Origin: a virus
Virus record (IMG/VR): IMGVR_UViG_3300028840_001735
Strand: one strand, 5' to 3'
Length of the DNA: 64,000 bases
Within the stretch, counting starts at the first letter, position 1; each line of letters opens with the position of its first letter. The notes below the pieces were generated by a model. It did not search any database, had not been told where the DNA came from, and saw only the letters and a list, made by a program, of their open reading frames with translations. Positions 2,643 to 46,600 of this stretch are shown in pieces. Both the position numbers and the translations under genes were made by a program.

Positions 2643-2945
2643 CTAGTTATTTAAACGTTCACATTCATCAACTTCATTGCATGTTTTTGCTGTAACACGG
2701 CAATCAAGATCCCAATTAACTATACCGCTACTCTGAACGTTTTGACATACTTCAATACATGTAGCGCCTTCTAAAGTAGGTAAAGCCCAACTGCAATCAA
2801 GTTGTTCACCACGTTTACAAACATCATGACAACTTGGATTAACAACTGGTTCGATTTCGTTTTGAACTGGTTTTTGTGTTCTAGTTATACAACACGACAA
2901 AACACACAAGAATAAACTTGACATTAATAATTGTTTTATAATCAT
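2643..2945 (-). CDS. Cys-rich secreted protein, possible lipoprotein
   Basis: Signal-like N-terminus MIIKQLLMSSLFLCVLSCC with a lipobox-like VLSC. There are 8 Cys in the ~75-aa mature part. The start overlaps the upstream peptidase stop as ATGA. Confidence 0.55.
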   Translation of the reverse strand: MIIKQLLMSSLFLCVLSCCITRTQKPVQNEIEPVVNPSCHDVCKRGEQLDCSWALPTLEGATCIEVCQNVQSSGIVNWDLDCRVTAKTCNEVDECERLNN

Positions 2946-3721
2946 TTAAGTACCGGTGAATTTTCTACTACCCAAAAATCACGACAATAAGAAGATACAA
3001 TATAATCGTATGAAAATTTACAATATCCGCCGTCTTTCCAATCTGTTCCCCAAGAGTTTACAATATCAAAAGATCTTGAATCGTAACCGACGACTAACAT
3101 CGCGTGGCCACCGGCAATTGCGTCTTTATCTTCGGGCGGTACGGCGATATCGAAATCACCACGTATAAATTTGTTAGTTATCAACGCACCAAAGGATACT
3201 GTTCTACCTTCCGAAATAGCGCGTTTAATAGCCGTTATGCGCTTATAACCGCTTTGATATATGCGATAGTACCTAACAGGGGTTCGCTGATCGTGCGCAC
3301 TCATAAAGGCATCTGTAGCCGGCATAATAGACCAACGATATTCACCATTAACCTTGTCATGTAAATAAGGCCATGAATCTTCAGGTGGGTATCCTAACTT
3401 ATCAATAGCAGTGAATAGAGTTCTGAGGTAAGTACCTTCATCTAAATGCACTGCACTATGCTGAGCCCTGGATAAATAGTATCCCCACAGCCTAGAACCT
3501 AACTTAGGGTTAGTAATTCCTTGACGTTTATGATCTGCGCGTATCTGTTGAAAAACAGCATTAGCAACACATGTATTCATATTGCCTTGATCTAAAACAG
3601 ATACGATAAAAGAACGATTAGAAGCCGATGATTCTAATACATCTAAACTTAACAGATCATCGGCATTCCAATCTTGTTTTTCATTATTCCTTTTAGGACG
3701 ATCCGGTATCCAACCAAGCAT
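2942..3721 (-). CDS. papain-like (C1 family) cysteine peptidase
   Basis: DQGNMNTCVANA (Gln six residues before Cys), GGHAMLVVGYD and VNSWGTDWKDGGY match papain Gln19/Cys25, His159 and the Asn175-Ser-Trp-Gly motifs in the right order. No signal peptide is present. Confidence 0.75.
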   Translation of the reverse strand: MLGWIPDRPKRNNEKQDWNADDLLSLDVLESSASNRSFIVSVLDQGNMNTCVANAVFQQIRADHKRQGITNPKLGSRLWGYYLSRAQHSAVHLDEGTYLRTLFTAIDKLGYPPEDSWPYLHDKVNGEYRWSIMPATDAFMSAHDQRTPVRYYRIYQSGYKRITAIKRAISEGRTVSFGALITNKFIRGDFDIAVPPEDKDAIAGGHAMLVVGYDSRSFDIVNSWGTDWKDGGYCKFSYDYIVSSYCRDFWVVENSPVLK

Positions 3722-4870: not shown

Positions 4871-5554
4871 TTAAACTCCAGTAGCGTATTGAAAGTGCAT
4901 ATCATCACGGCGTTTCCATTCACCGCCCCAACTGAAACCATGCCTTTTAAATATTTCTACTAGTTTGAAATCTATATCACCTCGTTTGCCCGGCGGATTA
5001 GTTGCCCAGTTTATATCACATGCAATTCCCCAAGTGTGTAAAGATATTCCACTACGTGGATTATGATTTTTATGTCTAGGCGACCAAGTTCCAAATTGTA
5101 CTATTTCATAATCTAGATCGGCGTCTAATACATCTTGTAATGCCGCTTCAAAAACATGAACTATCTTTTTATGAATCCATTTCTTACCCACAATCGGCAA
5201 GTCTACCTTTGCTATATTTTTACGCGCCCAATCTCCTAAAAGTTCTATTCTACCACCTAAAGTATCTTTATAAGCTAACGTCCCAAACGTTCTACATACT
5301 TCTAAATCGCCGTGCGGTACAGGAACAGTAGATTCTTTTGAAATTTTATCGTCTATTATATTTCTCATAGCTGATAAAGTATATATACCAACTTCACCGG
5401 TAACCATATATTTCTGCTGAAAAGCAATAACTGCCTTTTTAGTTTTTGGTCCAAAGTCAGCGTCGATCTTTGCTTTATATAATCCGAGATCATAAAGGAA
5501 TTTTTGAATCTCTTTTACTTTCCTACCCTTATCACCATATTTTATTTTATCCAT
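4871..5554 (-). CDS. endolysin: peptidoglycan-binding domain + M15 (VanY-type) zinc peptidase
   Basis: The N-terminus is PG_binding_1-like (GDKGRKVKEIQKFLYDLGLY..DADFGPKTKKAVIAFQ). The C-terminus carries SLHTWGIACD ... WGGEW..RDDMHF, i.e. the H-x-D and D-x-x-H zinc motifs. Confidence 0.8.
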   Translation of the reverse strand: MDKIKYGDKGRKVKEIQKFLYDLGLYKAKIDADFGPKTKKAVIAFQQKYMVTGEVGIYTLSAMRNIIDDKISKESTVPVPHGDLEVCRTFGTLAYKDTLGGRIELLGDWARKNIAKVDLPIVGKKWIHKKIVHVFEAALQDVLDADLDYEIVQFGTWSPRHKNHNPRSGISLHTWGIACDINWATNPPGKRGDIDFKLVEIFKRHGFSWGGEWKRRDDMHFQYATGV

Positions 5555-5569
5555 TTTATTTCCCCTTCT

Positions 5570-8284
5570 TTATTTCCTTTTTAAACTGGTCATTACATTC
5601 ATTCTAGAACCTACAAAAGCAAATAAATCATTACCATAAGTAACAGAGTATAAATATTCTTTATATCTGTCAATACGCATTTTTGCAACTTCATAAAATG
5701 TCATACAATTATTACTAACCCATATACCTTGTGATGTTTCACTAGTAGTTTCTGAGTAACCACCTACAATAACATATAAACCATTAGCATAAAATACAGA
5801 ATTAAAATTTGTGCTAGAACCTGCACCTGTTTTTCTTTGTGTCCATGTTGTACCGTCTGGACTTGTTTGTATTTCTAAATCATCACCTACAGCAACATAT
5901 AAACCGTCATCTTCACTATAATATACATCTCTAAAAGTATCTGTGTAACTACCTGCTGCTGTTCGTTGTGTCCATGTTGTACCATCTGGACTTGTTTGTA
6001 TTTCACCACCAACACCTACAGCAACAAATAAATCATCGTTACTACTATAACATACACCCATAAAACCATCACCATAACCTCCTGCTGGTGTTCTTTGTGT
6101 CCATGTTGTACCGTCTGGACTCGTTTGTATTTCACCACTATAACCTACAACAACATATAAATCATCAGCAAGACTATAACATATATCTCTAAAAATATCT
6201 GTGTAACTACCTGCTGCTGTTCGCTGTGTCCATGTTATACCGTCTGGACTTGTTTGTATTTCACCACTACCACCTACAATAACAAATAAATCATCGTTAT
6301 TACTATAACAACCTCCATAAAAATTCCCTGTATAACTTCCTGCTGGTGTTCTACGTGTCCATATTATACCATCTACACTAGTTTGAATGTTACCATCTTC
6401 ACCAACAGCAATAAATAAATGTTCATAACCTGTTTTATTATTAGAAAATATATGGTAAATATCTTCTGAAATATAATCTAAATTATCTCCAGTTGTAACT
6501 TGATACCAATTAAATACATCTGAACTTGTTTGTATTTCACCAGCAATTCCTACAATAACAAATAAATCTATTGAATCACTAGCACATACAGCATAAAAAT
6601 TTTCTTCACAATATTTATCTGCTGTCCTTTGATACCATGTTATACCATCTGAACTCCTCTGAATTTCACCATTTTCACCTACAGCAATATAAGAACCTCT
6701 TACACTTCCATAACATACATCTCTAAAATCATCTGTGTAACTTCCTGCTGCTGTTCGCTGTGTCCATGTTGTACCATTTGAACTTGTTTGTATTTCGCCA
6801 GTAGCTCCTACAGCAATATATAAATCATTGTCTTCACTATAACATATACCATAAAAAGTATCTGTGTAACTACCTGCTGCTGTTCGTTGTGTCCATGTTG
6901 TACCGTCTGAACTCGTTTGTATTTCGCCAGTAGCTCCTACAGCAACAAATAAATCATCATTGCTACTATAACATATAGCCCTAAAATTTCCGCTATAACT
7001 TCCTGCTGCCGTTCTTTGTGTCCATGTTGTACCGTCTGGACTTGTTTGTATTTCACCATCATCACCAACAGCAACAAATAAACCATCGTTATTACTATAA
7101 CATACACCCCTAAAACCACTTGTGAATCCTCCTGCTGCTGTTCGCTGTGTCCAACTTACACCATCTGAACTCGTTTGTATTGCGCCAGCAGTTCCTACAG
7201 CAACAAATAAATCATTGTTACTACTATAACATACATCATAAAAAACACCACCAAAACTACTACCAGCTACTCGTTGTACCCATGTTATACCGTCTAAACT
7301 CGTTTGTATTTCGCCAGCAGTTCCTACAGCAACAAATAAATTTATACCAATATCAGCATTGTTAGAACATACAGCTTGAAAGTTTCCATTATACCCTACA
7401 TCAAACTTCTGTTTTTCCCAATTTTCAACTTGCATACGTTTTAGTTTATTTACTTCATCGAACCAATCAGAACCTAAATCAGATAAAGAATAATTAATAA
7501 CATTTTGATTATCTGTTGCATCACTTGGAATAGTTGGCGGACTTCCTGAACCAGCACCAGTCACATATCCTATATACCAATAACCCGCAAGTGCGTGCAA
7601 TGTTTGATCGCTCTGTCTCGATACAGTTGGACCTAACATCAATACCGTATAATCCGCCGCCGTTTCACTTACTGTAGACTGTCCAAGTAATCCAGTAGTT
7701 GTGATCGTATTATTTCCACCACTATAAGAAACAGTACACGTTTCAATAGCAATCGCTTCAGTTGTAGCACCTATCGCCGGTGTATTTTTCCAGACTAAAC
7801 AACTCCGTCCGGTATGTTCACGATCACCGTATATCAACGAATTAACATTGAATGTTATATTCGTTCCGTTGTCAGTTACAGAAGTCGGCGTACCTGATTC
7901 ACCTATCGTTTCTTCCCACTGAAGATATTCTGGATAAGCTGTTCTAGCATTTATCTGTATACCACTTGGTTTAACATCATATTTTAACGCTATATCGTAA
8001 TTTGTTGAATTGACATTTTCTATTTGAACATCTGTACAATAAACATTACTAGTCAAATCATGTCCAGAACCATCAGTACCACTTTGACTTGTGAGATCTA
8101 TTTCATCATTTCCTGAAGCCGATATGACTACTTTTGTACTTCCAAACGTACCATCATCATCGTAAACCCTACTCAATACGTTCGCTAAAGAATTATTCAA
8201 ATAATCCAGAAAGTAATCTTTAAAACTTTCTGTACCTAGTAACTTTTTAGTTACTATATTAGTGTATTTATCTCCAGTAGTCAT
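5570..8284 (-). CDS. distal tail protein with Asp-box (BNR) beta-propeller repeats; receptor-binding candidate
   Basis: 904 aa. There are 12 clear and 2 degenerate ~41-aa units containing G(E)IQTS(P/S)DG(T)TW. The gene follows the gpJ/gpI-like baseplate genes. Confidence 0.6.
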   Translation of the reverse strand: MTTGDKYTNIVTKKLLGTESFKDYFLDYLNNSLANVLSRVYDDDGTFGSTKVVISASGNDEIDLTSQSGTDGSGHDLTSNVYCTDVQIENVNSTNYDIALKYDVKPSGIQINARTAYPEYLQWEETIGESGTPTSVTDNGTNITFNVNSLIYGDREHTGRSCLVWKNTPAIGATTEAIAIETCTVSYSGGNNTITTTGLLGQSTVSETAADYTVLMLGPTVSRQSDQTLHALAGYWYIGYVTGAGSGSPPTIPSDATDNQNVINYSLSDLGSDWFDEVNKLKRMQVENWEKQKFDVGYNGNFQAVCSNNADIGINLFVAVGTAGEIQTSLDGITWVQRVAGSSFGGVFYDVCYSSNNDLFVAVGTAGAIQTSSDGVSWTQRTAAGGFTSGFRGVCYSNNDGLFVAVGDDGEIQTSPDGTTWTQRTAAGSYSGNFRAICYSSNDDLFVAVGATGEIQTSSDGTTWTQRTAAGSYTDTFYGICYSEDNDLYIAVGATGEIQTSSNGTTWTQRTAAGSYTDDFRDVCYGSVRGSYIAVGENGEIQRSSDGITWYQRTADKYCEENFYAVCASDSIDLFVIVGIAGEIQTSSDVFNWYQVTTGDNLDYISEDIYHIFSNNKTGYEHLFIAVGEDGNIQTSVDGIIWTRRTPAGSYTGNFYGGCYSNNDDLFVIVGGSGEIQTSPDGITWTQRTAAGSYTDIFRDICYSLADDLYVVVGYSGEIQTSPDGTTWTQRTPAGGYGDGFMGVCYSSNDDLFVAVGVGGEIQTSPDGTTWTQRTAAGSYTDTFRDVYYSEDDGLYVAVGDDLEIQTSPDGTTWTQRKTGAGSSTNFNSVFYANGLYVIVGGYSETTSETSQGIWVSNNCMTFYEVAKMRIDRYKEYLYSVTYGNDLFAFVGSRMNVMTSLKRK
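5645..7387 (-). repeat. tandem ~123-126 bp coding repeats (propeller blades)
   Basis: Long near-identical strings such as cctgctgctgttcg(t/c)tgtgtccatgttgtacc recur near 5952, 6211, 6744, 6873, 7002 and 7131. Confidence 0.9.
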
Positions 8285-8303: not shown

Positions 8304-8657
8304 TTAACTAACTTTTCCAAACTTAGGTAGAACATTAACAACCATTTCGAGATTACCTGAACCACTAGTATGATCCCAAGCAATTCTAGCATATCTATAT
8401 TTACAAACTACCTCTTCATAACCAGAACCAGGTGTACCACCTGGATTGATAGCGAATGTAAACGGTATCTCTTGCCAACCTACACCACCACCGGCAAGAG
8501 AATCGTCGTTTGTGACTTCTAAATCAAAATCGCCAGATAAATCGTTTGTCCAAGTATACGTGATACTAAATTCGTCAGAATATCTTAAATCAATAACTAA
8601 ACTGTTTGTATCGGCGCCTATAACACCACCGTCAAAAATAGTTCCTGCTGTTTTCAT
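8304..8657 (-). CDS. hypothetical protein (small beta-rich tail-associated)
   Basis: 117 codons with an ATG start, packed between the gpI-like and propeller genes. Confidence 0.5.
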   Translation of the reverse strand: MKTAGTIFDGGVIGADTNSLVIDLRYSDEFSITYTWTNDLSGDFDLEVTNDDSLAGGGVGWQEIPFTFAINPGGTPGSGYEEVVCKYRYARIAWDHTSGSGNLEMVVNVLPKFGKVS

Positions 8658-8669
8658 TTTATATTTCTC

Positions 8670-11600
8670 CTATGTTACAGAATACGGTAAAGAAACTTTA
8701 CCAAAAACATTTGCATTGCCGTCTAATTTGCTACCTAAATAAAAAAACATCACTGTCTGAACGTATTGAGCCCAACGATTAGTCGTATCAGATACACCGC
8801 CGGTTGTAGCGCCCTGTACTTCAATCGTCCCAAGTGTTGGATCTAACGTTATAACCATCGGTTGATAAGCACTAAACGTTATTACTGTAGTATCGGCAAC
8901 TAAAGATCCGTTTGCATACATTTCTATTTTACCGGCAGCACCGGCAGCACTATTATATCTCAAAAATACTTCTTGCCCTGTAGTTGAATTGTATAAAGTA
9001 TAAATATAAAAGTCTTGTTCCGGTGCTTCGGTTGTTCCGAATTCTGGCTCCCATAAAATCGAATGCCTTTGTTTACTTATACTTGTAGAAAAACTACTTA
9101 AAGCTAAACTCGCCGTTCCAGCTTTACGCATACAAGGTTCTTCTCTGTCAGCAGGTTCTGAATTTGGTTCTACCCTAGCGTGCCATAAATATAAACCACT
9201 TGAACCATCACCTTGATAACTATTAGAACCATCCTCGTCTGCCAAGTATATATAAACAGAACTCGAACCAGAAGAAGTAGTTGTGTCAACTATCCAACAC
9301 CTATACCAATCATCACCTACATATTCTATACCAGAACTTTCAAGATTAGTTGTTGTACCTACGGCGCCGTTTGTTAAATCAAAATATGCTGATGGTAAAG
9401 CACCACCGCTAAACTGTCCGCTTGAAGCAAAGTTTATTCTGATAAAATCGCGTTCGCCGGCTTTAGCATATACACTAAATACATACTGTGTAGCATCAGA
9501 ATAAGAAATACTAGCAGAATAAGCAGCATGAACGTCGTCTGAAGAATCTTCTATCAGTTTATCTGCCGTAAGTGTTCCATTCGGTGAAACTATAGAATTC
9601 TCTGATATAGTCGCTTGCGCTTTAGTCCAGTCACTATCATCAAGTTCATTCGGATGTGTTACCATATTTACTGTTGGTAAACTGATAACACTAGGACGAT
9701 CGCCGATCTCTAGTTTAGCATTCCATAAATACAAACCACTTGAACCATCGCCGTTATATGATTCATTTCCTTCAGTGTCACACAAATAAAATGTACATGG
9801 CGTAGACGATGCAAGATTAGATTCCTGTGATATATAACATCTATACCAACCACCACCAACATCTTCTATTCCATAATTGCTTGGACTACCTTGTGCACCT
9901 GGACTAGTACCTATAACACCATTAGTTAGATCAAAATCAACATTTGTTTCATCTGTAAACCCTGTTGTTGCTATATTCATTCGTAACCAAGTTCGTTCAC
10001 CGGCTTTAGCGTATACACTAAAACAATAATCCGAAGAACCGTCCGGCGTTTTATATTGTTGCATTACATGATTGTTTGATGATGTACTATCCTCTACTAG
10101 TTTATCTGCCGTAAGCGTTCCATCCGGTGCCCTTGTAGTATTCGCCGTCACAGTAGTTCTAGTTTTTGTCCAGTCACTATGATTAAACTCTTGAGCCCTT
10201 GTAAAAAGATTTGTGTTTGTATGTATTGGACTTGTCGGAAAATAACCTTTTTCTATTTGTGTATTCCATATATAAGCACCACTTGATCCATCGCCTAAAT
10301 ATGTTACTGTTTCGTCATATTCTGTCACATATAAATAAGCTGATGTTGCTGTTTCTGAATCACTAGTTGCTATAACCCAACATCTATACCAATCATTTCC
10401 AATATCATATATGCCAGAACTATCTATTCCGGCACCCTCTGTTCCTACTTCGCCGTTTACTAAATCAAAATGGCAATATGTATTAACCGGGAAACCGGCA
10501 GAAAGAACTATTTGAATATCACGTCCATTACCTTTAGCATACACACTAAAACAATATTTTGAACTACCATCAGGAGTAAACGCCGAACTTTGGTATACTG
10601 TATGTGAAGAATTACTAGAGTCTTCTCTGATTCTACTAGCTGTTTCTGTATTGTTCGGCGCAGTTATAGTAATGCTAGGAACATCAACATTACCAACAGA
10701 CCAAGTAGAACCATCTAAACGTTGCGATTGATCTAAATAGTTAGATGCTTCACCTTCACTTAGTAAAGCTAATCTGTTATATAGCCTACCATAAATAGCC
10801 ATATTAGAATTATAATAATCACTTACTGAATTTTCGTTAATGTTATACCTTGGACCTAACCAATTACTATAACTAACATCTAAAATATCGGCATAGCTTT
10901 CTAATTCAGTATCAACTGTATCTATTGATTCTATTTCTTCACAACATATGTAACAATCACGTACAAGAAAACCAACACCATCAGGGTAAACTAATGGTGA
11001 ATAATCTGTAGTTTCAATAACCAGATTACCGTCTATAAAAATACTTATCTTTAGTTGGATGCCTTCCCAACACAATTGAACTCTAAATCCATAATATATA
11101 TCCTCATATAGTTCTATGGTTGTAGAGGTGAGAATTTCAGATAAATATCTACTTTTATCATAATACTTTCTTATATATAATGTGTTCGGTATATAGTTTA
11201 TACAATAACCATTTACGATATAAGATTCAAAATTGCTACCAGTTGTTTCAGACTTGTTTATAAAAAGGTTTATATTAGGATTTGTATCTGTTTCATGATA
11301 TTTAATTCTAGCATACGTAATCTGAGATACCCATTCTGAAGATACTACATTATTCCATGCAACTTCTATATCATCATTATCATTTTCACCTACTTGCATA
11401 TAACCATCTTCAACAGTTATAGAATATGTACTTGAATCGCTCCATTGTGAATCATCACTGTCTATAATAAAGCGATCTAAAAATCTTAGATACGTAATCT
11501 CCCATGATTCACCAGTCGCACGGAAAATATTATTCATTAAATTTTCAACTAATGTTCTGTTCAAACTACCTGAATCAACTATTCTTAGATTAGATATATA

Positions 11601-12077
11601 TTCGCTACCTAATTCATCTGGATCTGGTAAAGCTATACACCAAGGATCAACGCCTTCATGTTCTTCACCGGGGCCGGTTTCATCTAACACCCATCTGAAA
11701 TCAAACCAATTCCATATAAGATTACGTTCACCAGTTACATAGTATAAAACTTCTTGGATTATATCTTCTGAACCACGTTCCTTCCAAAGTTCAGCAGATA
11801 CCACGATCAAACGACGTAATTCATTATAAGTCAAACCAGAAGTTATATTATCTAGGTTATCAGTCCAACCAACAATATTTTTTAAGTACTGTAAATACTC
11901 ATCTGGACAATCCGAAACAGACCACAAATCCGGTATTGTCTGTATAATATTTGCGTTTGTTTCCCAAACACTTTGTGGTCCTGTTAAGTAACGTTCTAGA
12001 AACTGTAATCCCTCGCGCTGATCCGCCATACGGATTGCGCCGATTATAAAATCATATATTTGTCTAGGTACAGTCAT
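8670..12077 (-). CDS. baseplate/tail protein: P2 gpI-like N-terminus fused to three lectin-like modules
   Basis: N-terminus IPDLWSVSDCPDEYLQYLKNIVGWT...RRLIVVSAELWKERGSEDIIQEVL matches the Tail_P2_I pattern. It sits immediately downstream of the gpJ-like gene (TAATG overlap). Residues ~445-975 hold three ~175-aa repeats. Confidence 0.6.
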   Translation of the reverse strand: MTVPRQIYDFIIGAIRMADQREGLQFLERYLTGPQSVWETNANIIQTIPDLWSVSDCPDEYLQYLKNIVGWTDNLDNITSGLTYNELRRLIVVSAELWKERGSEDIIQEVLYYVTGERNLIWNWFDFRWVLDETGPGEEHEGVDPWCIALPDPDELGSEYISNLRIVDSGSLNRTLVENLMNNIFRATGESWEITYLRFLDRFIIDSDDSQWSDSSTYSITVEDGYMQVGENDNDDIEVAWNNVVSSEWVSQITYARIKYHETDTNPNINLFINKSETTGSNFESYIVNGYCINYIPNTLYIRKYYDKSRYLSEILTSTTIELYEDIYYGFRVQLCWEGIQLKISIFIDGNLVIETTDYSPLVYPDGVGFLVRDCYICCEEIESIDTVDTELESYADILDVSYSNWLGPRYNINENSVSDYYNSNMAIYGRLYNRLALLSEGEASNYLDQSQRLDGSTWSVGNVDVPSITITAPNNTETASRIREDSSNSSHTVYQSSAFTPDGSSKYCFSVYAKGNGRDIQIVLSAGFPVNTYCHFDLVNGEVGTEGAGIDSSGIYDIGNDWYRCWVIATSDSETATSAYLYVTEYDETVTYLGDGSSGAYIWNTQIEKGYFPTSPIHTNTNLFTRAQEFNHSDWTKTRTTVTANTTRAPDGTLTADKLVEDSTSSNNHVMQQYKTPDGSSDYCFSVYAKAGERTWLRMNIATTGFTDETNVDFDLTNGVIGTSPGAQGSPSNYGIEDVGGGWYRCYISQESNLASSTPCTFYLCDTEGNESYNGDGSSGLYLWNAKLEIGDRPSVISLPTVNMVTHPNELDDSDWTKAQATISENSIVSPNGTLTADKLIEDSSDDVHAAYSASISYSDATQYVFSVYAKAGERDFIRINFASSGQFSGGALPSAYFDLTNGAVGTTTNLESSGIEYVGDDWYRCWIVDTTTSSGSSSVYIYLADEDGSNSYQGDGSSGLYLWHARVEPNSEPADREEPCMRKAGTASLALSSFSTSISKQRHSILWEPEFGTTEAPEQDFYIYTLYNSTTGQEVFLRYNSAAGAAGKIEMYANGSLVADTTVITFSAYQPMVITLDPTLGTIEVQGATTGGVSDTTNRWAQYVQTVMFFYLGSKLDGNANVFGKVSLPYSVT
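9153..10745 (-). repeat. three tandem ~175-aa protein modules
   Basis: Each module contains (S/D)W(T/S)....V....(AP/SP)(D/N)GT.TA(D)...EDS...H, then (C/V)FSVYAK(A)G.R, FDL.NG.VGT, WYRC and GDGSSG.Y(L/I)W. Confidence 0.8.
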
Positions 12078-14260
12078 TATCCCGCCGTTATAACAATAGT
12101 TCCGGCAACCGGCAATTCTCTAGATAACAATTCTAGATTAGCGGCAAACCCGTTGATAGTTAAATTCTCTACCCTTGTAATATTTGAATCTGAAGCAAAT
12201 ATTTCATGAGTTATTCTTGATAAATAAACATCCTCACCAAACTGCCATTCAAATTCAACACCGTCTGATTTTCTTGTATCAGGTTGTAGTAATGCTGTAA
12301 GACTATCCTCTATAGCATCTACATCTAAAGCATCATAAACAGTAGCGGTGATATTCACAACCTTTTGAGTATAGTTTGTAGAAGTAATCTCTTGATTAGC
12401 TACAAGTCTTTTAGGTTTTACCGGTGACGAATACCGATCACCGTTGAAATATTCATCTAACGCCGATAACTGTGCAGAAGTAGCAACCCCACCGCCGGCA
12501 GTTACTACAACTAATTCAACAGTCTTAGGACCAAAACCACCTTCAACGGCATAACCTCTTATAAATATTTTTGAATTCGTGTTTTCATCTATGTAATCCA
12601 ACAACATAGATTCTATATCGTCTGGACTAATTGCAACCGTTTTAGTTCTCAAAGATGCTGGACCAGATATTTTTGCAAGTTCTAAACTCTCTGTACTTGC
12701 CGATTGCGATTCTTGCCAACCAACCGCCGGCCTTGGGTTCCATACTGAAGACACATCGGTTAAACCAGACTTGTCTACCACTATAGTGTTTGCACCAACA
12801 TTACCATCAGCATCGGCATCATAACGATATACAGAAGCTATAGTTGATCCACTTCCTGGTATCTTTCCTCTAATCCCATCACCAAAAGTAAATGTTGCCC
12901 GATCGTCTTCACCTAGTGAAACAGTGTAATGTTTACTGACAGATGTACTCTGTAGAAAATCATCAACCCTAGTCCATTCAACAGAATCAACCGTTACAGT
13001 TTCCGATTCATCTATAAAACCTGTTTTTACAGTAGAAAATTCTTGATCCGCTGAACCATCAGAAGTACCCATGTTAGATTCTGTAAACGTTTGTCCCTGG
13101 ATCATAGATACTTTAACATATTGATCACCTTGATCAATTACTATTCGATCTATTATAGGTGCTGTTCCGGCAGTATAAGATATAACACGATAACGTATCC
13201 AGTAATTTGTTTCACCGTTTATCTCTGCCGTTTCCCAACTCTCTGTTAAATTTTCTGGTAAAGTATATTCAACAGTATCAGAAGAAGATAGATTAGATGT
13301 GTTATCTGTAACGTCGCTTATTTCTTTCCAAGCACTACCTACAGTATAATGAGTTTCATCGGTATCAAGATCGGCAAGTTGCTGTCCTAATAGTGTTGTG
13401 GTTGTTATATAATTCTTGTTTCCTTCTCCGTAATCTGCCCATTCTGAGATTACATCTTCATAAGTACCTGAAGCGTCTAGCTGAACCCTAACAGATGTAC
13501 CTGTCCGTTCGCTAGTGCCAAGAATACCATCAACGGCAAAACGTAAAGTTGAACCTACAAGAGTAACATCATCTGGATTATCATCTAAATAATCGCCGTC
13601 GTAATACTCCCATAGCCCAACTAATCCACTTGAACCTGTGTCAAGTGTTATATCTAACTGATCCCACATCACCCCGCTATGTCCTATATATAAACAGTCT
13701 CGATTAGCAGGAACAGACCAAGGTGTAAAATCGTCGCCGGGTGCGCTGTTTGCTTCTGTTGTATAATCTGTATATGTATCTGTACTTTGATCGTATGCAA
13801 ACACGTTTGTAAGATCACCTGTTTCACTTGCGGCGACAGTTAAAGCCGTTAACGCTTCATAATATATAGTGGTTCCTGTAACTTGCGCTTTAGTTGCTAC
13901 TTTTGAATTCGCTGAAACTACTACTGTAGAAGCCGATAAAGCACCGGTTAATTTCATAACTATATCGACTTCTGCCGGTGATACCGAACTCAAATCATAG
14001 TCGATTAGCTTCAACATGTTCCTGATATTTTCTGGTAACTGTGCTGTGACTAATGTGCTCTCATTAGCTACCATATCAGCAAGTGTATTATTTAAATGTC
14101 CTACAAGGGCAAACGCCCTTAGTAATTGTATCAAAGGTTCTTGTGGAGATTCATCTGTTAATTCAGGTAAATTAATTCTTTTAAACTGGATTAGTGATTC
14201 TAAAATTTCACCGTAATAAAATGAAGCCCAATTAAAACTAGGTATTGAAATAGTTGTCAT
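12077..14260 (-). CDS. baseplate J-like protein (P2 gpJ / Mu gp47 class)
   Basis: 727 aa, positioned between the gpW-like and gpI-like genes. The N-terminal region ...PQEPLIQLLRAFALVGHLNNTLADMVANESTLVTAQ fits the Baseplate_J pattern. Confidence 0.6.
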   Translation of the reverse strand: MTTISIPSFNWASFYYGEILESLIQFKRINLPELTDESPQEPLIQLLRAFALVGHLNNTLADMVANESTLVTAQLPENIRNMLKLIDYDLSSVSPAEVDIVMKLTGALSASTVVVSANSKVATKAQVTGTTIYYEALTALTVAASETGDLTNVFAYDQSTDTYTDYTTEANSAPGDDFTPWSVPANRDCLYIGHSGVMWDQLDITLDTGSSGLVGLWEYYDGDYLDDNPDDVTLVGSTLRFAVDGILGTSERTGTSVRVQLDASGTYEDVISEWADYGEGNKNYITTTTLLGQQLADLDTDETHYTVGSAWKEISDVTDNTSNLSSSDTVEYTLPENLTESWETAEINGETNYWIRYRVISYTAGTAPIIDRIVIDQGDQYVKVSMIQGQTFTESNMGTSDGSADQEFSTVKTGFIDESETVTVDSVEWTRVDDFLQSTSVSKHYTVSLGEDDRATFTFGDGIRGKIPGSGSTIASVYRYDADADGNVGANTIVVDKSGLTDVSSVWNPRPAVGWQESQSASTESLELAKISGPASLRTKTVAISPDDIESMLLDYIDENTNSKIFIRGYAVEGGFGPKTVELVVVTAGGGVATSAQLSALDEYFNGDRYSSPVKPKRLVANQEITSTNYTQKVVNITATVYDALDVDAIEDSLTALLQPDTRKSDGVEFEWQFGEDVYLSRITHEIFASDSNITRVENLTINGFAANLELLSRELPVAGTIVITAG

Positions 14261-32534: not shown

Positions 32535-33758
32535 CTATATAAACCTACCAAAAAACAAAGCTTCTTCTATTGCCGCTTCTTCATATTCTGGTTCAAAAAG
32601 TAAACCAAAAAAATGATCGGCGTTACTCGAAGATTGCCCTAAATAAACATCACCATCGTCTGTACTCCATGATGTTCCTGAATGTGTACCGTTACCAGTA
32701 GTGAATAGTGAAGTTATAATATCACCTTCCCCGGGGTCGATTACTATCTTTAAAATTTGCCCTCTGGACCAGGTGTGATTCCCTGAAGTGACAAGAGCAC
32801 TTGCCCCATCGACTACTATCCGGCCAGTGTCGGCACTCGTCCCGGGTTCCAAATATATTTTGATATCCTGGGTGGCATCATCGAAGTGGAGTAACACCTG
32901 CTCCTCGGTGCTTGTATCGTATAACTGAGCGCTTCCGAATTCTGGGATTATATATAACGTAATCTTTCCTCTTAGATTCGAAGTTACATCCGTCGAATCC
33001 CAATACCCGTTAGCTGCCGCCCTAGTGACATCTGATGTTCCAGAATTCGGGATAATCGACGAAGGCCACTCACCGAATTCAAACTGTGCCTGCCATCCCC
33101 AAAAAGCACTGGACCCGTCCCCTGTGAAGTAATAATCCGTCCCATCTAATGCTAAAAATTCAGACCGCAACCATTCATAAGCAGCACAGTCGTTTATATC
33201 GCGAGTATACCAGCAGAAGCACCATCCGTCGCTCGCATCGTCCGCACCAGAATCTATTATACCACTTGTACTCCCAACCGACTTCGCACTAAGATCATAG
33301 TTTACATCTGTTTGATCACCGGTATGCTGGTGTCTCATCCGCAAATCATAGCCGTTGTCTTTGCCGAATATCGATGCTGCCCACGTCCCTTCTGGCGTGT
33401 TTTCATCAAACGTAGTGATCCATTTGCGGATGAAGTGGTCGTTATAGTTTGTGCTCGGAACTACTTCATCAGCAGTGTTTGTCCCGAGTGGGTCATCAGT
33501 ACCTGTGTCATTAGTATTTACGGTAACCTGATCAGTGTCATATTGATCAAATTGTTGCGAATAGAATTGAACGTTAGTCCGCGATCCTTCTATTAATATA
33601 CCTGTACGGGTAGCCCCATCTACAGTCATGTCAACCGTCGCTTTGACATTTGAACCGAACGACCCCAGCACCTCTTCGATGGACGTGCCGATCGGTCCAA
33701 TATAACGCGTACTAGAACAACTAAATGTTAAATCATCAAAATCTGCTGCAATTGCCAT
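32535..33758 (-). CDS. lectin-like module protein, paralogue of the C-terminal part of 8670..12077
   Basis: Residues ~60-240 align with the repeat module of the gpI-like protein (TN...F....W....V..N.T..P.GT.TAD ... GDGSS..W.A..E.G..PS.I). The C-terminal ~130 aa also resemble that protein's C-terminus. Confidence 0.5.
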   Translation of the reverse strand: MAIAADFDDLTFSCSSTRYIGPIGTSIEEVLGSFGSNVKATVDMTVDGATRTGILIEGSRTNVQFYSQQFDQYDTDQVTVNTNDTGTDDPLGTNTADEVVPSTNYNDHFIRKWITTFDENTPEGTWAASIFGKDNGYDLRMRHQHTGDQTDVNYDLSAKSVGSTSGIIDSGADDASDGWCFCWYTRDINDCAAYEWLRSEFLALDGTDYYFTGDGSSAFWGWQAQFEFGEWPSSIIPNSGTSDVTRAAANGYWDSTDVTSNLRGKITLYIIPEFGSAQLYDTSTEEQVLLHFDDATQDIKIYLEPGTSADTGRIVVDGASALVTSGNHTWSRGQILKIVIDPGEGDIITSLFTTGNGTHSGTSWSTDDGDVYLGQSSSNADHFFGLLFEPEYEEAAIEEALFFGRFI

Positions 33759-42750: not shown

Positions 42751-43638
42751 TTACAGCAAGCCAGTCCAAATATTACCATCTGTATTCTTTTGTACCAGTT
42801 TATCTTCTGAAGACTTAGGCGCCGGACGTGTTTCCTCGATCTTAGAAACGCGTCCGCTAATATCTTCAAGGCTCTTTTTGATCGGTGCAAAAACTTCTTC
42901 GATCGACTTAGTAACAGAATCAGTATTTTCACCTTTAGATACCCACTTAACATCAGCAGGTAACGCTGTTTTAGTTAGATCAGAAATAATACCTTTTACA
43001 GAATCGGGATCTACACTTACCAACATACCTAACAGTTGTTCGGTAGTCTTTTTAAGTGTAGCTGTTCTCTCACCTGTAAACCGTTTATTCTTTTCAAGAT
43101 CTTCAACATTAAGAAGTTCGCCGTTTTCTCCCAACTGAAAAACGATAGACTTTTTAACTTTATTTTTCTCTTCATCCTCATCTTTTTCTTTATCATCGGA
43201 TTTTTTCTTGTCCTCTGATTCTTCCTTCTCTTTTTCTTTATCCTTATCCTCTGCTTTTTTCTTTTCTTTGTCGTCTTCTTCCTTTTCTTTATCCTCTGCT
43301 TTTTCAACTGGATAATCGCCAGGTTTTAGTTGACTAAGAAAAGTAACTATAGAATCAATATCCTCATTAGGAACACTCTCACTATCTGAACTTTTGTTCA
43401 AGTATTCCTTGATGTTAGTTATTGACTTAACTAGATCCACCGGCAAACCGGCTTTTTCTAGCGTTTCGTTTGTTAGTCCATTATTAGGATCAAACGCACC
43501 CATGGTTTTAACCTCCTCATTTCTTTTCCAGAGTAAAAATTCACGCAAGATTGCCGGTTTATCAACTATGGAAACCTCACGAGTATCTAAACCGAGAATT
43601 TCTCGGGCATCTTTTTTGCTTTTATTTTTAGTAATCAT
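42751..43638 (-). CDS. scaffolding protein
   Basis: 295 aa, with a highly charged helical centre (KEKEEDDKEKKKAEDKDKEKEKEESEDKKKSDDKEKDEDEEK). It lies between the protease-domain gene and the capsid gene, with an ATGA overlap upstream. Confidence 0.65.
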   Translation of the reverse strand: MITKNKSKKDAREILGLDTREVSIVDKPAILREFLLWKRNEEVKTMGAFDPNNGLTNETLEKAGLPVDLVKSITNIKEYLNKSSDSESVPNEDIDSIVTFLSQLKPGDYPVEKAEDKEKEEDDKEKKKAEDKDKEKEKEESEDKKKSDDKEKDEDEEKNKVKKSIVFQLGENGELLNVEDLEKNKRFTGERTATLKKTTEQLLGMLVSVDPDSVKGIISDLTKTALPADVKWVSKGENTDSVTKSIEEVFAPIKKSLEDISGRVSKIEETRPAPKSSEDKLVQKNTDGNIWTGLL

Positions 43639-46600
43639 TTTCCTTCTACTGTAGCAATGCCACCAATACTAAACCCTGTCAACTCTTTATTCTTTATCTT
43701 ATTCCATATATTATCATCACTCACATGAACTGTCATCACCCAACTTCCTTTTTTGACATGTTTACCGTTTATATCATATGAAACAGGTGATATGTAAGAT
43801 TCAACTAATTCAACACCAATATCACCAAACATATTATGCATAATCCCCAATTTTGTACTCCTATTATAGTTAGTTAAAAAGTTATGGGCTGTCTTTCTAA
43901 TAGTTTCCGGCTTTTCCCAATCTTTATGTGCGTCAACCTCGTTAGGTTCTAAAACAATTCCAGTTACTATCCTTAATTCTCTACCTTCCGCCTTTACTGT
44001 TTCTACCTCGCAGAACTCGAATTCTTTAGTTGGCACATCAATCAGATTACCTTGATCAGAAACCAATAACCAACCGTCACCATCTTCTATAAGTCTATGT
44101 AATCCTTTGAGTTTTTTCCCTTTAAACATGATCTCTGTAGTACTAATAGAATCACCTGATAGCACCGCTAAACCTTGATCGATCACATCAATCTCTGATG
44201 TAAGTGCCTTGGATACATTTATATAGTGTGCCGGCTTGATATGTTTTGGTAAACTCATAGAGTTTTTATGCTTATCAAACTCCTTAATTACCCTAATCGG
44301 ATTATCACCAATAGGACTTTTTTCGGACTCCAAAACCAATAATGATGGTTCACCTATATCAAGTCTAATCATCCAACGTTCATTAGCCAAATTAGAACCT
44401 ATTTGAACAGGTTCACTCCAATTTTGTCTCTGTAAAACAAACTTTGCATTCGATAAAGAAAATTCACTTTTTTCAGAAAAACCTTTATTCACATCAATCT
44501 CAACCCTACTAGATTGGATTCTTTTTACCAATTCGTTGCGTACTGTTTCAATTTCACCTTCAGATTTTTCCCAATATTTCAACTCATCTGGTATCTGTTT
44601 TCTAATCGCTACAGGTAAAAACGAATAACCTTGCGGCGGTATCCAATGATCCTGAACGGATTGATCACTCAAAATATATGGCATTTGTTCTTTAGGACGA
44701 ACAGATATCCATAATTGCTTATCTATAATCCCAGAATTCTTTTTTATAAATACATCTGTACATTCATTACACAATTCTATTATATCACCGTCCCATTCTA
44801 TGAAACTCATTTCACCTTCATTTTTGCATACTAGACATTCTTCTATCCTATCTGTTTTTTCTATTTTTATGGCTCTAAAAACTAAACGCCCTTTGAAATT
44901 ACCGTTCTTTAAAAAATATTCCCGGTAATCACTTTTTTGGACGCCATACTCTACAACACCTTGATCCACAATATCAAACACACCAGGATATTGTGGATTA
45001 CCACCTATAGGCGATGCCTTACCTAATACCGGATCTTTAGTTTTACCTTCGATATCTAGCCAGATATTCGGACAAACACCTTCATATTTGCTTACAATTT
45101 CCACTGGCAAAGAATCATCATCTACCATCCAATTGTTGTTTTTCCAATCCACTTTACTTATATTATCCAAACACCCTGATAATTTTTTTGCTGTTTCTAA
45201 TGTAGTTACTGGTTTATCAATATCATATTCCTTTTGTATTTCCATAGTCCAACTAATCAAACTTTTATTGCATTCTGTTTCTACTCTAAAATCAGAATGC
45301 AAACTTTTACCGCACCAATGGTTTTGAACAACATATCTGTATGTACCAGACTCATCAGGGACAATAAGATTACTTTCATCACATGACTTTTTTACCGGGT
45401 TATAATTCATAACTTCAAGTAAATCACCAGGTTGTATCCCAGTAGAACCGCCGCCGGTAATAAACGTTGAAAGCTTTCTAACTATCCAACCGCGTTTTTT
45501 AAGTTCATTAAACTTCTTTTTAGCTTTCATATCGTAATGAAGAATAAACTTACCTTTTAAACTCTTTAGTTTTTCTATAAACTTATCTTCATCAAATTCT
45601 TTTTCGCCAACACCTTGATCACGTTCTGGGTATGGCGGATCTAAATAAAAGAATGAATCTGGCGCATCATACTTATCAAATAATTTTTCATAACTATCAT
45701 TATGAATCTTTACACCCTTTAATCTTTCTTTAGTAAGCGCTAATCTATCTGGACCTTGGTATCTTTTATTTTCAATCGAAGGATCTATACCTCTTATGTT
45801 TGTATCTACACGGTAAAAAGATGCAAACCTTTTATATACAAAACGGTAAAACCGTTCTATATCGTTTTTAGGTTTTAAATAATGTACCTTCTCTAATTGA
45901 TCTCTTGTGCAAACCCAATTGAGTGATTGTATCTTTTTAATCTGATCTTCAGTTATATCTTGTATAAACTTTAAACAAAAAGGTATCTCCGGGTTTATAT
46001 CGTTCAATACTTCTACTTCACTCCGTTCTTTACGATAAAAAACCGCCGCACCACCGGCAAACGGTTCTATATACGTTTTATGTTCTGGCATCATACTTAC
46101 TACACGTCCGGCGACTCTGGTTTTTCCGGCAGTAGAACCCCACATAGATAATCTTCGTTTACTAACACTTTCTTTATTTTCCGTTTCACGTTCTAATATC
46201 TTACGTGCTTTATTCTGTAAATCTGATATTTGTTTATCAGATAAACCAAATTTGCTTTGTGGTATACGTGCTATAGCATTCCTCAAGTGTGGCAAATCAA
46301 CTTTACCTGTAGCATCTTTATAAGGAAAATGCCGTAAACTTCTCGGTGCAGTTTTCCCTTCACCGTCCTTTTTACCACCTGATTCAACATATAAAAAAGC
46401 ACTATCCGGTAAATCGTTTATATAAGCCCTAGACCATACTGCTTTCTTTACAAAACATTGAAAACCAAAATCTTTATCAACCCAATTTTTATTTGAAAAC
46501 TCCTTTTCAAAATCAGAAGATAAGTCATCTAATCCGTTATCGGGCGGCGCCGGATGTTCCACACCATCTGAAGATAACTTATCCACAATCAAAGAATGTA

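What the first reader, a model, noticed from the sequence alone, without database searches (positions are those of the whole stretch)
5645..7387. Tail-distal protein built from 12-14 Asp-box (BNR) propeller blades encoded by near-identical DNA repeats
Seen in sequence:
- Residues ~300-880 of the 904-aa ORF are 12 clear ~41-aa units. Their consensus is G(E)IQTS(P/S)DG(T)TWTQRTAAGSYT..F..(V/I)CYS..D.LFVAVG. Two degenerate units follow.
- At DNA level the units share long identical strings (e.g. near 5952, 6211, 6744, 6873, 7002, 7131), so the array is young and recombination-prone.
- The gene occupies the tail-fibre/receptor-binding slot, after the gpJ/gpI-like genes and before the endolysin.

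Established: S-x-D-G-x-T-W is the classical Asp-box of sialidase-type beta-propellers.

Inference: fourteen blades would fit two 7-bladed propellers. A propeller-based receptor-binding protein or glycan-binding/hydrolysing tip would be an unusual architecture.
Basis: partly seen in the sequence, partly recalled or inferred. Interest (0 to 1): 0.65.

Follow-up and report, generated by a model that had tools for sequence, protein, structure and literature searches.

The report
Phage tail fibre with double propeller
The gene encodes the host-recognition tail protein of an uncultured contractile-tailed phage, with a conserved baseplate-anchoring head fused to 14 repeated Asp-box blades predicted to fold into two seven-bladed propellers; this is a tidy example of a widespread but unstudied module, not a new kind of system.

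Summary
**Observation.** The repeat array is real. ORF 5570-8284 (minus strand, 904 aa) carries 12 in-frame Asp-box units (S-x-D-G-x-T-W). The period is 129 nt, or 43 aa, not 41. A leading strand and two degenerate closing blades bring the total to 14 blades. The units are 57-88% identical in DNA, so they are not near-identical. Synonymous divergence is unsaturated, and two unit pairs show gene-conversion-like tracts.

**Structure.** AlphaFold2 on aa 280-904 gave pLDDT 87.9. Foldseek's best matches are tandem 7+7 double propellers, including 2ymu and GH74.

**Role.**
- The gene follows gpJ-like and gpI-like baseplate genes and precedes the endolysin.
- Its first ~285 residues form an anchor found in 731 protein clusters, always N-terminal.
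- In relatives the same anchor carries a pectate-lyase beta-helix, an S74-chaperoned fibre, a Kelch propeller or a single BNR propeller. This is the classic mosaic of a receptor-binding protein.

**Novelty.** Propeller receptor-binding proteins are already known (phi11, PRD1, phiKZ gp131, K1F endosialidase). Homologous BNR modules occur in thousands of proteins, many fused to phage tail domains.

**Most likely function.** A non-catalytic, multivalent adhesin head; a glycosidase role is not excluded.

**Verdict.** Observation partly confirmed and the 7+7 inference supported, but the architecture is not unusual. New member of a known kind; moderate-low interest.

The parts
5570..8284 (-). Complete CDS, 904 aa plus stop codon: receptor-binding tail protein
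   Evidence: ORF list and translation. The identical protein is seen on two other contigs.
7430..8284 (-). N-terminal anchor domain, aa 1 to ~285. Mostly beta, ending in a helix at aa 266-286.
   Evidence: It is 68% identical to the N-terminus of P0008, whose C-terminus is a pectate-lyase beta-helix. 731 representative clusters carry it, always at residues 1 to ~270, in proteins of 231-2661 aa. Model 1 gives pLDDT 80-95 for aa 90-240. No PDB relative was found by sequence.
7406..7423 (-). Extra leading strand, aa 288-293 (NWEKQK). It is the counterpart of the fourth-strand motif TWTQRT and is probably the 'velcro' strand that completes the last blade.
   Evidence: The sequence aligns with the unit consensus (unit 0). 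DSSP shows a strand at fragment residues 10-12.
6491..7381 (-). Blades 1-7, aa ~302-598: predicted first seven-bladed Asp-box propeller
   Evidence: DSSP shows seven sets of four strands at pLDDT mostly above 90. Foldseek matches 7+7 proteins.
5573..6472 (-). Blades 8-14, aa ~605-904: predicted second propeller. Blade 13 has a degenerate Asp-box (SNNCMTF) modelled at low confidence. Blade 14 has only three strands.
   Evidence: DSSP and pLDDT. The 6-aa insertion and divergence at unit 7 mark the boundary.
5750..7315 (-). The 12 clear 129-nt (43-aa) Asp-box units. Unit 7 is 147 nt.
4871..5554 (-). Endolysin immediately downstream (PG_binding_1 + Peptidase_M15_4)
   Evidence: The same arrangement is seen next to P0008 and P0009.
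8304..8657 (-). 117-aa ORF directly upstream, function unknown, conserved next to the receptor-binding gene in L003. Possibly an adaptor or assembly factor.
   Evidence: 35% identity to the 120-aa ORF preceding P0009. No family hit.
8670..12077 (-). 1135-aa gpI-like tail protein carrying three GTA head-spike-fibre domains. It is a likely baseplate partner and a second adhesin candidate.
   Evidence: TIGR02242 at aa 19-120 and NF048003, E 1.2e-108. phrog_5939 tail protein.
12077..14260 (-). 727-aa gpJ-like baseplate wedge protein
   Evidence: TIGR02243. phrog_219. 52% identical to its L001 counterpart.

Best explanation
The ORF encodes the exchangeable receptor-binding tail protein of an uncultured myovirus with a genome of about 98 kb. 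It occupies the slot that the tail fibre gene gpH holds in P2-like phages.

Residues 1 to ~285 form a clade-wide anchor that docks the protein to the gpJ/gpI-type baseplate periphery. A short helix follows. Residues ~288-904 are a cassette of 14 Asp-box blades that folds into two seven-bladed beta-propellers, closed by an N-terminal 'velcro' strand.

I infer that the double propeller is a non-catalytic, multivalent adhesin. Its many near-equivalent blades would present repeated binding pockets on the face opposite the Asp-boxes. That face is formed by the loop linking each blade's fourth strand to the next blade's first strand (conserved AAGSY plus variable residues) and by the variable loop between the second and third strands. 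These pockets would attach the phage to a repetitive host surface polymer, most likely a glycan, before sheath contraction.

The array arose by amplification or homogenisation of blades within the gene. It remains recombinogenic, which offers a route to altered specificity.

**Shown:** the repeat anatomy, the fold class, the gene slot, and the anchor with swapped heads.
**Inferred:** virion location, binding rather than catalysis, and the nature of the ligand.
For: **Repeat anatomy.**

**Fold**
- The AlphaFold2 model of aa 280-904 has pLDDT 87.9 and pTM 0.71, with 14 blades.
- Top Foldseek PDB hits are all tandem double propellers. They include 2ymu (TM 0.55/0.58), the GH74 entries 6p2n, 6p2m, 6p2l and 2cn2, and Aip1 1nr0.
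- A 315-aa viral propeller superposes on half of the model at TMt 0.78 and rmsd 2.6 A.

**Gene slot**
- The tail module runs sheath, tape measure, baseplate, gpJ-like, gpI-like, this gene, endolysin.
- The order is syntenic in L001, L002 and L003.

**Anchor with swapped heads**
- P0008 has a 68% identical N-terminus but a pectate-lyase beta-helix head, and sits before the same type of endolysin.
- L010 carries a Peptidase_S74 chaperone, L016 carries Kelch propellers, and several other loci carry unrelated heads.
- 731 anchor clusters exist, always N-terminal, in proteins of 231-2661 aa.

**Relatives of the module sit on phage tails and cell surfaces**
- 21 of the best 120 hits carry Sipho_tail, and 5 carry Peptidase_S74.
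- P0037 is named 'phage tail family protein'.
- Caulobacter phage KSC annotates its relative as tail fibre, and cyanophages as gp7.
- P0018 is a bacterial surface protein with S-layer homology (SLH) domains.

**Against catalysis**
- The only invariant or near-invariant columns in 48 homologues are Asp-box S, G and W residues.
- There is no sialidase or GH family hit.
- The only sequence relative with a solved structure is the non-enzymatic Ycf48.
- Asp-box glycosidase propellers are characteristically irregular, with few Asp-boxes (PMC2716378). Here 12-13 of 14 blades keep the motif.

**Array dynamics.**
Against: - There is no experimental evidence of virion incorporation, and the host is unknown. 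No tRNA was found, no prophage relative was found in genomes, and the major capsid protein is at most 30% identical to any cultured phage.
- Model coordinates could not be inspected. The 7+7 split and the velcro pairing rest on Foldseek scores and DSSP only.
- The full-length model failed in the middle of the array.
- Blade 13 is modelled at low confidence.
- A sister phage carries a depolymerase-type beta-helix in this slot. GH74 enzymes share the tandem Asp-box propeller fold. An enzymatic head is therefore plausible.
- The regularity of the blades may reflect recent amplification rather than multivalent binding.
- The upstream 1135-aa fibre protein could be the primary adhesin.
Confidence: 0.55

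Rival explanations
1. The double propeller is a depolymerase. It would be a GH74-like or sialidase-like glycoside hydrolase, with the active site in the cleft between the two propellers or on one top face. It would cut a capsule, exopolysaccharide or cell-wall glycan so the phage can reach the cell surface.
For: - GH74 xyloglucanases are the solved Asp-box proteins with the same continuous 7+7 layout, and they rank among the top Foldseek hits at E ~1e-16 (PMC2716378).
- The K1F tailspike is an Asp-box propeller enzyme (PMC2716378).
- The closest anchor relative, P0008, carries a pectate-lyase-type beta-helix typical of depolymerases in the same slot.
- There is a weak NCBIfam hit to an 'F510_1955 family glycosylhydrolase', 47 bits against a cut-off of 175.
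- BFVD lists a phage protein named beta-1,4-xyloglucan hydrolase among the weaker matches.
Against: - No sequence-level match to GH33, GH58 or GH74.
- TM to GH74 is only ~0.35-0.42 with 13-16% identity. This is lower than to the non-enzymatic 2ymu.
- No blade-specific conserved acidic or basic residues were found among 48 homologues.
- The blades are far more regular than in known Asp-box enzymes (PMC2716378).
Confidence: 0.22
2. The protein is a virion or baseplate structural or decoration component, or an accessory adhesin for environmental surfaces such as mucus or particles. It would not determine host range; the upstream 1135-aa fibre would be the true receptor-binding protein.
For: - The 1135-aa gpI-like protein carries three fibre domains.
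- Some relatives fuse BNR propellers to the distal tail protein Dit (Pfam Sipho_tail) or to gp7-type baseplate proteins rather than to fibres.
Against: - The extreme diversity of heads on a conserved anchor is the signature of host-range determinants.
- The heads include S74-chaperoned fibres and a depolymerase-like beta-helix.
- The gene occupies the gpH position directly after gpI.
Confidence: 0.13
3. The repeat number or the array itself is an assembly artefact: collapse or expansion of a shorter array in short-read metagenome assembly.
For: The data are metagenomic, and the units share exact strings of up to 51 nt.
Against: - Units differ at 12-43% of positions, so reads of 100-150 nt are placed uniquely.
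- The same 904-aa length was recovered on three contigs from at least two samples, with one substitution between versions.
- The reading frame stays intact through all 14 blades.
- End-to-end alignment with 14-blade modules of unrelated proteins fits a complete two-propeller domain.
Confidence: 0.03

Closest known systems
GH74 xyloglucanases/cellobiohydrolases (e.g. 2cn2, 6p2n, 6p2m, 1sqj)
   Same: An uninterrupted run of Asp-box blades forms two tandem seven-bladed propellers, 'type 3' in PMC2716378. They are among the top Foldseek hits.
   Different: - 13-16% identity and no sequence-family match.
- GH74 has only 4+5 Asp-boxes, irregular blades and a catalytic Asp pair in the cleft.
- Here 12-13 of 14 blades keep the Asp-box and no conserved catalytic residues were found.
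- GH74 enzymes are secreted, whereas this module is fused to a phage baseplate anchor.
Ycf48/HCF136 (Pfam PSII_BNR, PF14870; 2xbg, 5ojp)
   Same: It is the only solved family detectable by sequence: Pfam E 2.4e-13 and PDB E 6e-4. It has ~43-aa blades with Asp-box-like turns and is a non-enzymatic binding propeller.
   Different: It is a single seven-bladed propeller that acts as a photosystem II assembly factor. The NCBIfam equivalog scores 55 bits against a cut-off of 326, so this protein is not an orthologue.
Phage propeller receptor-binding proteins: phi11 Gp45 (five-bladed), PRD1 P2, phiKZ gp131C (seven-bladed, 4GBF)
   Same: A beta-propeller serves as the distal host-binding domain of a baseplate-attached protein (PMC4901313, PMC13250141).
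   Different: They belong to different propeller families without Asp-boxes, have a single propeller per chain, and show no sequence relation here.
Coliphage K1F endosialidase (GH58, 1v0e)
   Same: It is a phage tailspike whose host-interacting domain is an Asp-box propeller (PMC2716378).
   Different: It is six-bladed with only two Asp-boxes, is catalytic, and has a C-terminal S74 chaperone. No End_tail_spike or Peptidase_S74 hit was found in this protein.
DUF6242 / DUF6242_C (PF19755 / PF25852) propeller modules, including 'phage tail family protein' fusions of Sipho_tail with a propeller
   Same: This is the true sequence family of the array. More than 4,500 proteins match. Many align end to end over the ~590-aa, 14-blade cassette at 35-46% identity.
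   Different: - These proteins are uncharacterised, with no structure or function published that I could find.
- Their units are mostly 39-40 aa, against 43 aa here.
- They carry a different N-terminal context: the distal tail protein Dit, SLH, Ig or Fn3 domains.
Nostoc punctiforme 'highly repetitive propeller' (2ymu)
   Same: It is the best structural match (TM 0.55/0.58). It has 14 very similar blades forming 7+7 and is a textbook case of recent blade amplification.
   Different: It belongs to the WD40 family, has no Asp-boxes, and is a cellular protein.

Membership tests
Asp-box (BNR) beta-propeller | Repeated S-x-D-G-x-T-W motif | tested here: met
   12 motifs at 43-aa spacing plus one degenerate motif, SNNCMTF.
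Asp-box (BNR) beta-propeller | The motif forms the hairpin between strands 3 and 4 of four-stranded blades arranged as a propeller | tested here: met
   In the model (pLDDT 87.9) each Asp-box lies between the EIQTS strand and the TWTQR strand. There are 14 blades and Foldseek matches propellers. This is a prediction, not an experimental structure.
Ycf48/PSII_BNR (PF14870) | Score above the curated family threshold | tested here: inconclusive
   Pfam gives 50.4 bits against a cut-off of 27, which is met. The NCBIfam equivalog PRK13684 gives 55 bits against 326, which is not met. The protein is a relative of the domain family, not an Ycf48 orthologue.
Ycf48/PSII_BNR (PF14870) | Single seven-bladed propeller of about 300 aa | tested here: not met
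   14 blades over ~600 aa, fused to a 285-aa phage anchor.
GH74 glycoside hydrolase | Tandem 7+7 Asp-box propellers from a continuous repeat run | tested here: met
   Foldseek hits 6p2n, 6p2m, 6p2l and 2cn2 at E 1e-16 to 1e-14 and TM 0.34-0.42. This is by fold only.
GH74 glycoside hydrolase | Sequence-family membership and a conserved catalytic Asp pair in the inter-propeller cleft | tested here: not met
   No GH74 chain was found by phmmer or by profile against PDB. No blade-specific conserved acidic residue was found in A2. Direct superposition of the active site was not possible without coordinates.
Sialidase / endosialidase (GH33, GH58) | Six-bladed catalytic propeller with Arg triad and nucleophile; Pfam BNR_2, Sialidase or End_tail_spike | tested here: not met
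   None of these families was hit. The model has 7+7 blades.
Phage receptor-binding tail fibre or spike (gpH slot) | Encoded at the distal end of the tail/baseplate module | tested here: met
   Order is gpJ-like, gpI-like, 117 aa, this gene, endolysin. Syntenic in L001-L003.
Phage receptor-binding tail fibre or spike (gpH slot) | Conserved N-terminal attachment domain with exchangeable C-terminal heads among related phages | tested here: met
   731 anchor clusters, always at residues 1 to ~270. Heads include a beta-helix, an S74 fibre, Kelch, BNR and unknown domains.
Phage receptor-binding tail fibre or spike (gpH slot) | Present in the virion and required for adsorption | not testable with these tools
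   Needs proteomics, cryo-EM and adsorption assays. The host is unknown.

The most novel reading that the evidence does not exclude
The 14-blade array may act as an evolvable, multivalent lectin head. Each blade junction would be a separate binding pocket. Unequal recombination or gene conversion between the 129-nt units would reshuffle pocket-lining loops, or change blade and propeller number. This would give the phage a built-in route to shift host range without acquiring foreign DNA. The window protein would then be a recent doubling of the single-propeller heads seen in its closest relatives.
Probability: 0.15. Interest if true: 0.55.

Novelty: new member of a known kind. Interest (0 to 1): 0.3.

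Why it matters
It adds a clean, well-delimited example of a receptor-binding head class that is abundant in uncultured phages but has no solved structure or known ligand: the DUF6242_C / Ycf48-like Asp-box propellers. The construct boundaries given here (anchor aa 1-285, head aa ~288-904) make it directly expressible for structural and glycan-binding work.

The anchor family (731 clusters with many different heads) is a ready-made natural library for studying or engineering receptor-binding module exchange in a large clade of uncultured phages (contigs of 53-108 kb).

It does not change current understanding of phage adsorption. Propeller heads and mosaic receptor-binding proteins are both established.

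Tried and rejected
- **Near-identity DNA search against phages.** No match. The phage is novel, so no annotated twin exists.
- **PHROGs on the protein.** Only spurious short hits.
- **Full-length AlphaFold2 with a 68-sequence alignment.** The middle of the array (aa 551-670) and the C-terminus were unresolved, and Foldseek TM was below 0.2. It was superseded by the model of aa 280-904.
- **Profile searches of PDB sequences.** Neither the head alignment A2 nor the anchor alignment A3 gave anything meaningful.
- **Word-indexed homologue search with the anchor.** It found only 6 proteins. The exhaustive HMMER search showed 731 clusters, so the earlier impression of a tiny family was wrong.
- **My first reading of the ~630-aa homologues.** I took them to be bare 14-blade arrays. 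That was wrong: they are the anchor plus one degenerate propeller.
- **Host inference.** No tRNAs. The genome-contig scan with the capsid protein found nothing. Capsid relatives are at most 30% identical.
- **A look-up of P0001's contig failed**. P0127 was used instead.
- **A single 14-bladed ring.** Considered and rejected, because a closed seven-bladed propeller superposes on half of the model and every top hit is a 7+7 protein.
- **A clear seven-unit super-period as evidence of whole-propeller duplication.** There is only a weak rise of identity at offset 7, 54% against 45-46% at offsets 4-5. This is not conclusive.
- **Literature.** I found no paper linking BNR or DUF6242 propellers to phage receptor binding.
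Full report
**1. What is in the sequence**

The finding lies inside one ORF on the minus strand, 5570-8284, 904 aa.
- Tandem Repeats Finder reports an array at 5833-7341 with a basic period of 129 nt. Overlapping solutions at 258 and 387 nt score up to 1369.
- A motif scan finds 12 Asp-boxes, [ST]-x-[DN]-[GV]-x-x-W, starting at aa 329 through 808. They are spaced exactly 43 aa apart except for one 49-aa interval.
- The repeat finder shows the same 12 copies in register.

- The period is 43 aa, not ~41.
- The units are not near-identical. Pairwise identity is 57-88% in DNA and 33-77% in protein. The longest exact shared strings are 51 nt (units 4/11) and 43 nt (units 3/12).

**2. Age and dynamics of the array**

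- Between regular units the mean synonymous difference is 0.30 and the mean non-synonymous difference is 0.24.
- Synonymous sites are far from saturated. The units therefore share recent ancestry or are being homogenised.
- Protein-level change concentrates at unit positions 22-27, 32-34 and 42-43.
- A GENECONV-style permutation of variable sites shows an excess concordant tract for units 4/11 (34 sites, global p 0.006) and for units 3/12 (23 sites, pairwise p < 0.001). This fits conversion or unequal exchange between distant units.
- Identity rises only weakly at an offset of seven units. A whole-propeller duplication is possible but not demonstrated.
- The repeat number is reproducible. The identical protein (P0127) lies on contigs of 98,550 and 96,422 nt from two samples. 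A third contig encodes a 904-aa version with the single change A494D, at one of the hypervariable loop positions.

**3. Fold**

*Sequence level*
- Pfam finds only PSII_BNR/Ycf48 above threshold, at 50.4 bits.
- Ycf48 is also the only solved structure found by sequence, at E 6e-4.
- Profiles of the family find nothing further in PDB.

*Models*
- A full-length AlphaFold2 model left the centre of the array unresolved.
- A model of aa 280-904, built on a 48-sequence alignment, reached pLDDT 87.9 and pTM 0.71.

*What the DSSP assignment of the second model shows*
- One leading strand at aa 289-291.
- Then 14 blades in the order FRDVCYS (first, innermost strand), LFVAVG (second), EIQTS (third), TWTQR (fourth).
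- The Asp-box lies in the hairpin between the third and fourth strands, as in known Asp-box propellers (PMC2716378).
- Blade 13 has a degenerate, low-confidence third and fourth strand.
- Blade 14 stops after its third strand. The leading NWEKQK strand is the obvious candidate to complete it. This pairing is inferred.

*Foldseek*
- Against PDB, only tandem double propellers rank at the top. These are 2ymu (TM 0.55/0.58), four GH74 xyloglucanases, Aip1 and UTP proteins.
- Against BFVD, a 315-aa viral propeller superposes on half of the model at TM 0.78 and 2.6 A.
- I could not inspect coordinates. The 7+7 arrangement is well supported but indirect.
- The 6-aa insertion and sequence divergence at unit 7, and the degeneration of units 13-14, sit where the two rings would close.

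**4. Genomic context**

All long ORFs are on the minus strand. The window is a phage structural and replication region.
- Genes present include a terminase, portal, a capsid protein of phrog_1623, sheath, tape measure and baseplate.
- Immediately upstream lie a gpJ-like baseplate protein (TIGR02243) and a 1135-aa gpI-like protein (TIGR02242) carrying three GTA head-spike-fibre domains. A 117-aa ORF follows.
- Immediately downstream is a PG_binding_1 + Peptidase_M15_4 endolysin.
- The gene thus occupies the slot that the tail fibre gene gpH holds in P2-like phages (my own knowledge of the P2 gene order).
- Related metagenomic phages keep this order (L001-L003).
- No cultured phage is close. There is no megablast hit, and the capsid protein is at most 30% identical.

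**5. The decisive comparative evidence**

Residues 1 to ~285 are a separate domain.
- They are 68% identical to the N-terminus of P0008. The rest of P0008 is a pectate-lyase-type beta-helix, and it precedes the same type of endolysin.
- An exhaustive HMMER search finds 731 representative clusters with this domain. It always lies at residues 1 to ~270, in proteins of 231-2661 aa.

In IMG/VR contigs of 53-108 kb the same anchor carries different heads:
- a Peptidase_S74-chaperoned fibre (L010);
- a weak endosialidase-like segment (L008);
- Kelch-repeat propellers (L016);
- several unrelated unknown heads.

Only 5 of the best 150 representatives contain BNR units. Only the window's cluster has 13 or more. 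Its nearest relatives (P0009, L007 and similar) have one degenerate propeller.

A conserved attachment domain with freely exchanged distal heads is the hallmark of receptor-binding proteins.

**6. How common the head is**

The array matches more than 4,500 proteins.
- Many align end to end over a ~590-aa, 14-blade cassette at 35-46% identity.
- Of the best 120, 21 carry the Sipho_tail domain of the distal tail protein Dit, 5 carry Peptidase_S74 and one carries a tail-collar domain.
- Others are cell-surface proteins with SLH, Ig, Fn3 or InlB-repeat domains.
- The precomputed family is PF25852, DUF6242_C.
- 21 phage genomes in GenBank (INPHARED collection) encode weaker relatives, annotated as tail fibre (Caulobacter KSC), baseplate wedge initiator (cyanophage gp7) or BNR repeat protein.
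- 247 BFVD models match the fold.

Solved propeller receptor-binding proteins already exist: phi11 Gp45, PRD1 P2, phiKZ gp131C and the K1F endosialidase (PMC4901313, PMC13250141, PMC2716378). The architecture is therefore not unusual in nature. This particular family, however, has no structure or ligand in the literature I could search.

**7. Mechanism**

Best supported:
- The anchor docks the protein on the gpJ/gpI baseplate periphery.
- The double propeller is the host-contacting head.

I favour a non-catalytic, multivalent adhesin for four reasons.
- The only columns conserved across 48 homologues are Asp-box S, G and W residues, which are structural.
- No glycosidase family is detected.
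- The sequence relative with a known function, Ycf48, is a binding protein.
- Asp-box enzymes are irregular with few Asp-boxes (PMC2716378), whereas here nearly every blade is canonical.

By the standard propeller convention (my knowledge, and consistent with PMC2716378), two loop types lie on the face opposite the Asp-boxes. One is the loop linking a blade's fourth strand to the next blade's first strand. The other is the loop between the second and third strands. The conserved AAGSY segment, the variable positions 22-24 and 42-43, and the natural A494D change all fall in these loops. This makes that face the likely ligand surface. This step is inference.

The main rival is a GH74-like depolymerase. 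It is supported by the shared 7+7 Asp-box topology and by the depolymerase-type head in the sister phage. It cannot be excluded without coordinates or biochemistry.

**8. Verdict**

- The two-propeller inference is supported.
- The receptor-binding role is strongly supported by context and module exchange.
- The claim of unusual architecture is not supported.
- This is a new, well-defined member of a widespread but uncharacterised class of phage receptor-binding heads.
- Its modest added interest is that it appears to be a recent, still recombining expansion to 14 blades within its own anchor family.

Noticed in passing
window 51138-53741 (-): The terminase large subunit ORF is 867 aa. Its terminase matches are split (aa 65-306 and 697-861) around a LAGLIDADG_3 domain at aa 554-622. 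This probably marks an intein with a homing endonuclease.
   Followed up: partly
window 43635-47159 (-): A 1174-aa ORF fuses a D12-class N6-adenine DNA methyltransferase (aa 345-553) to an XkdF-type S78_2 prohead protease domain (aa 1052-1170), inside the head module.
   Followed up: no
window 8670-12077 (-) and 32535-33758 (-): The gpI-like 1135-aa tail protein carries three 'GTA head spike fiber' domains (NF048003, E 1.2e-108). It is a second adhesin candidate. A 407-aa ORF in the head-tail region shares the same PHROG, phrog_5939.
   Followed up: partly
L016:5001-7931 (IMGVR_UViG_3300028042_000005): In a related phage, the same N-terminal anchor carries Kelch-repeat beta-propeller(s) in place of the BNR propellers. 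An unrelated propeller family has been recruited to the same receptor-binding slot.
   Followed up: partly
window 6803-6805 (codon 494 of the ORF): The only difference between the window protein and the variant P0001, from another contig, is A494D. It lies at a hypervariable position in the loop between the second and third strands, at the end of unit 4.
   Followed up: yes
window 2942-3721 (-): A 259-aa ORF with a papain-like Peptidase_C1 domain sits a few genes downstream of the endolysin. It is conserved at the same place in L001, L002 and L003. Its role is unknown.
   Followed up: no
window 8304-8657 (-): A 117-aa ORF with no family match lies between the gpI-like gene and the receptor-binding gene. 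A 35%-identical 120-aa ORF precedes the receptor-binding gene in L003. It may be an adaptor or assembly chaperone.
   Followed up: partly
L006:8001-11525 (JGI 3300075147): P0018 is a bacterial surface protein with SLH domains. It carries a 14-blade cassette 43-46% identical end to end to the phage head, and is flanked by recombinase and transposase genes. This suggests cassette exchange between phage tails and host surface proteins.
   Followed up: partly
window 1-64000: No tRNA genes were found. GC is 34-43% with uniformly negative GC skew, and essentially all long ORFs are on the minus strand.
   Followed up: no
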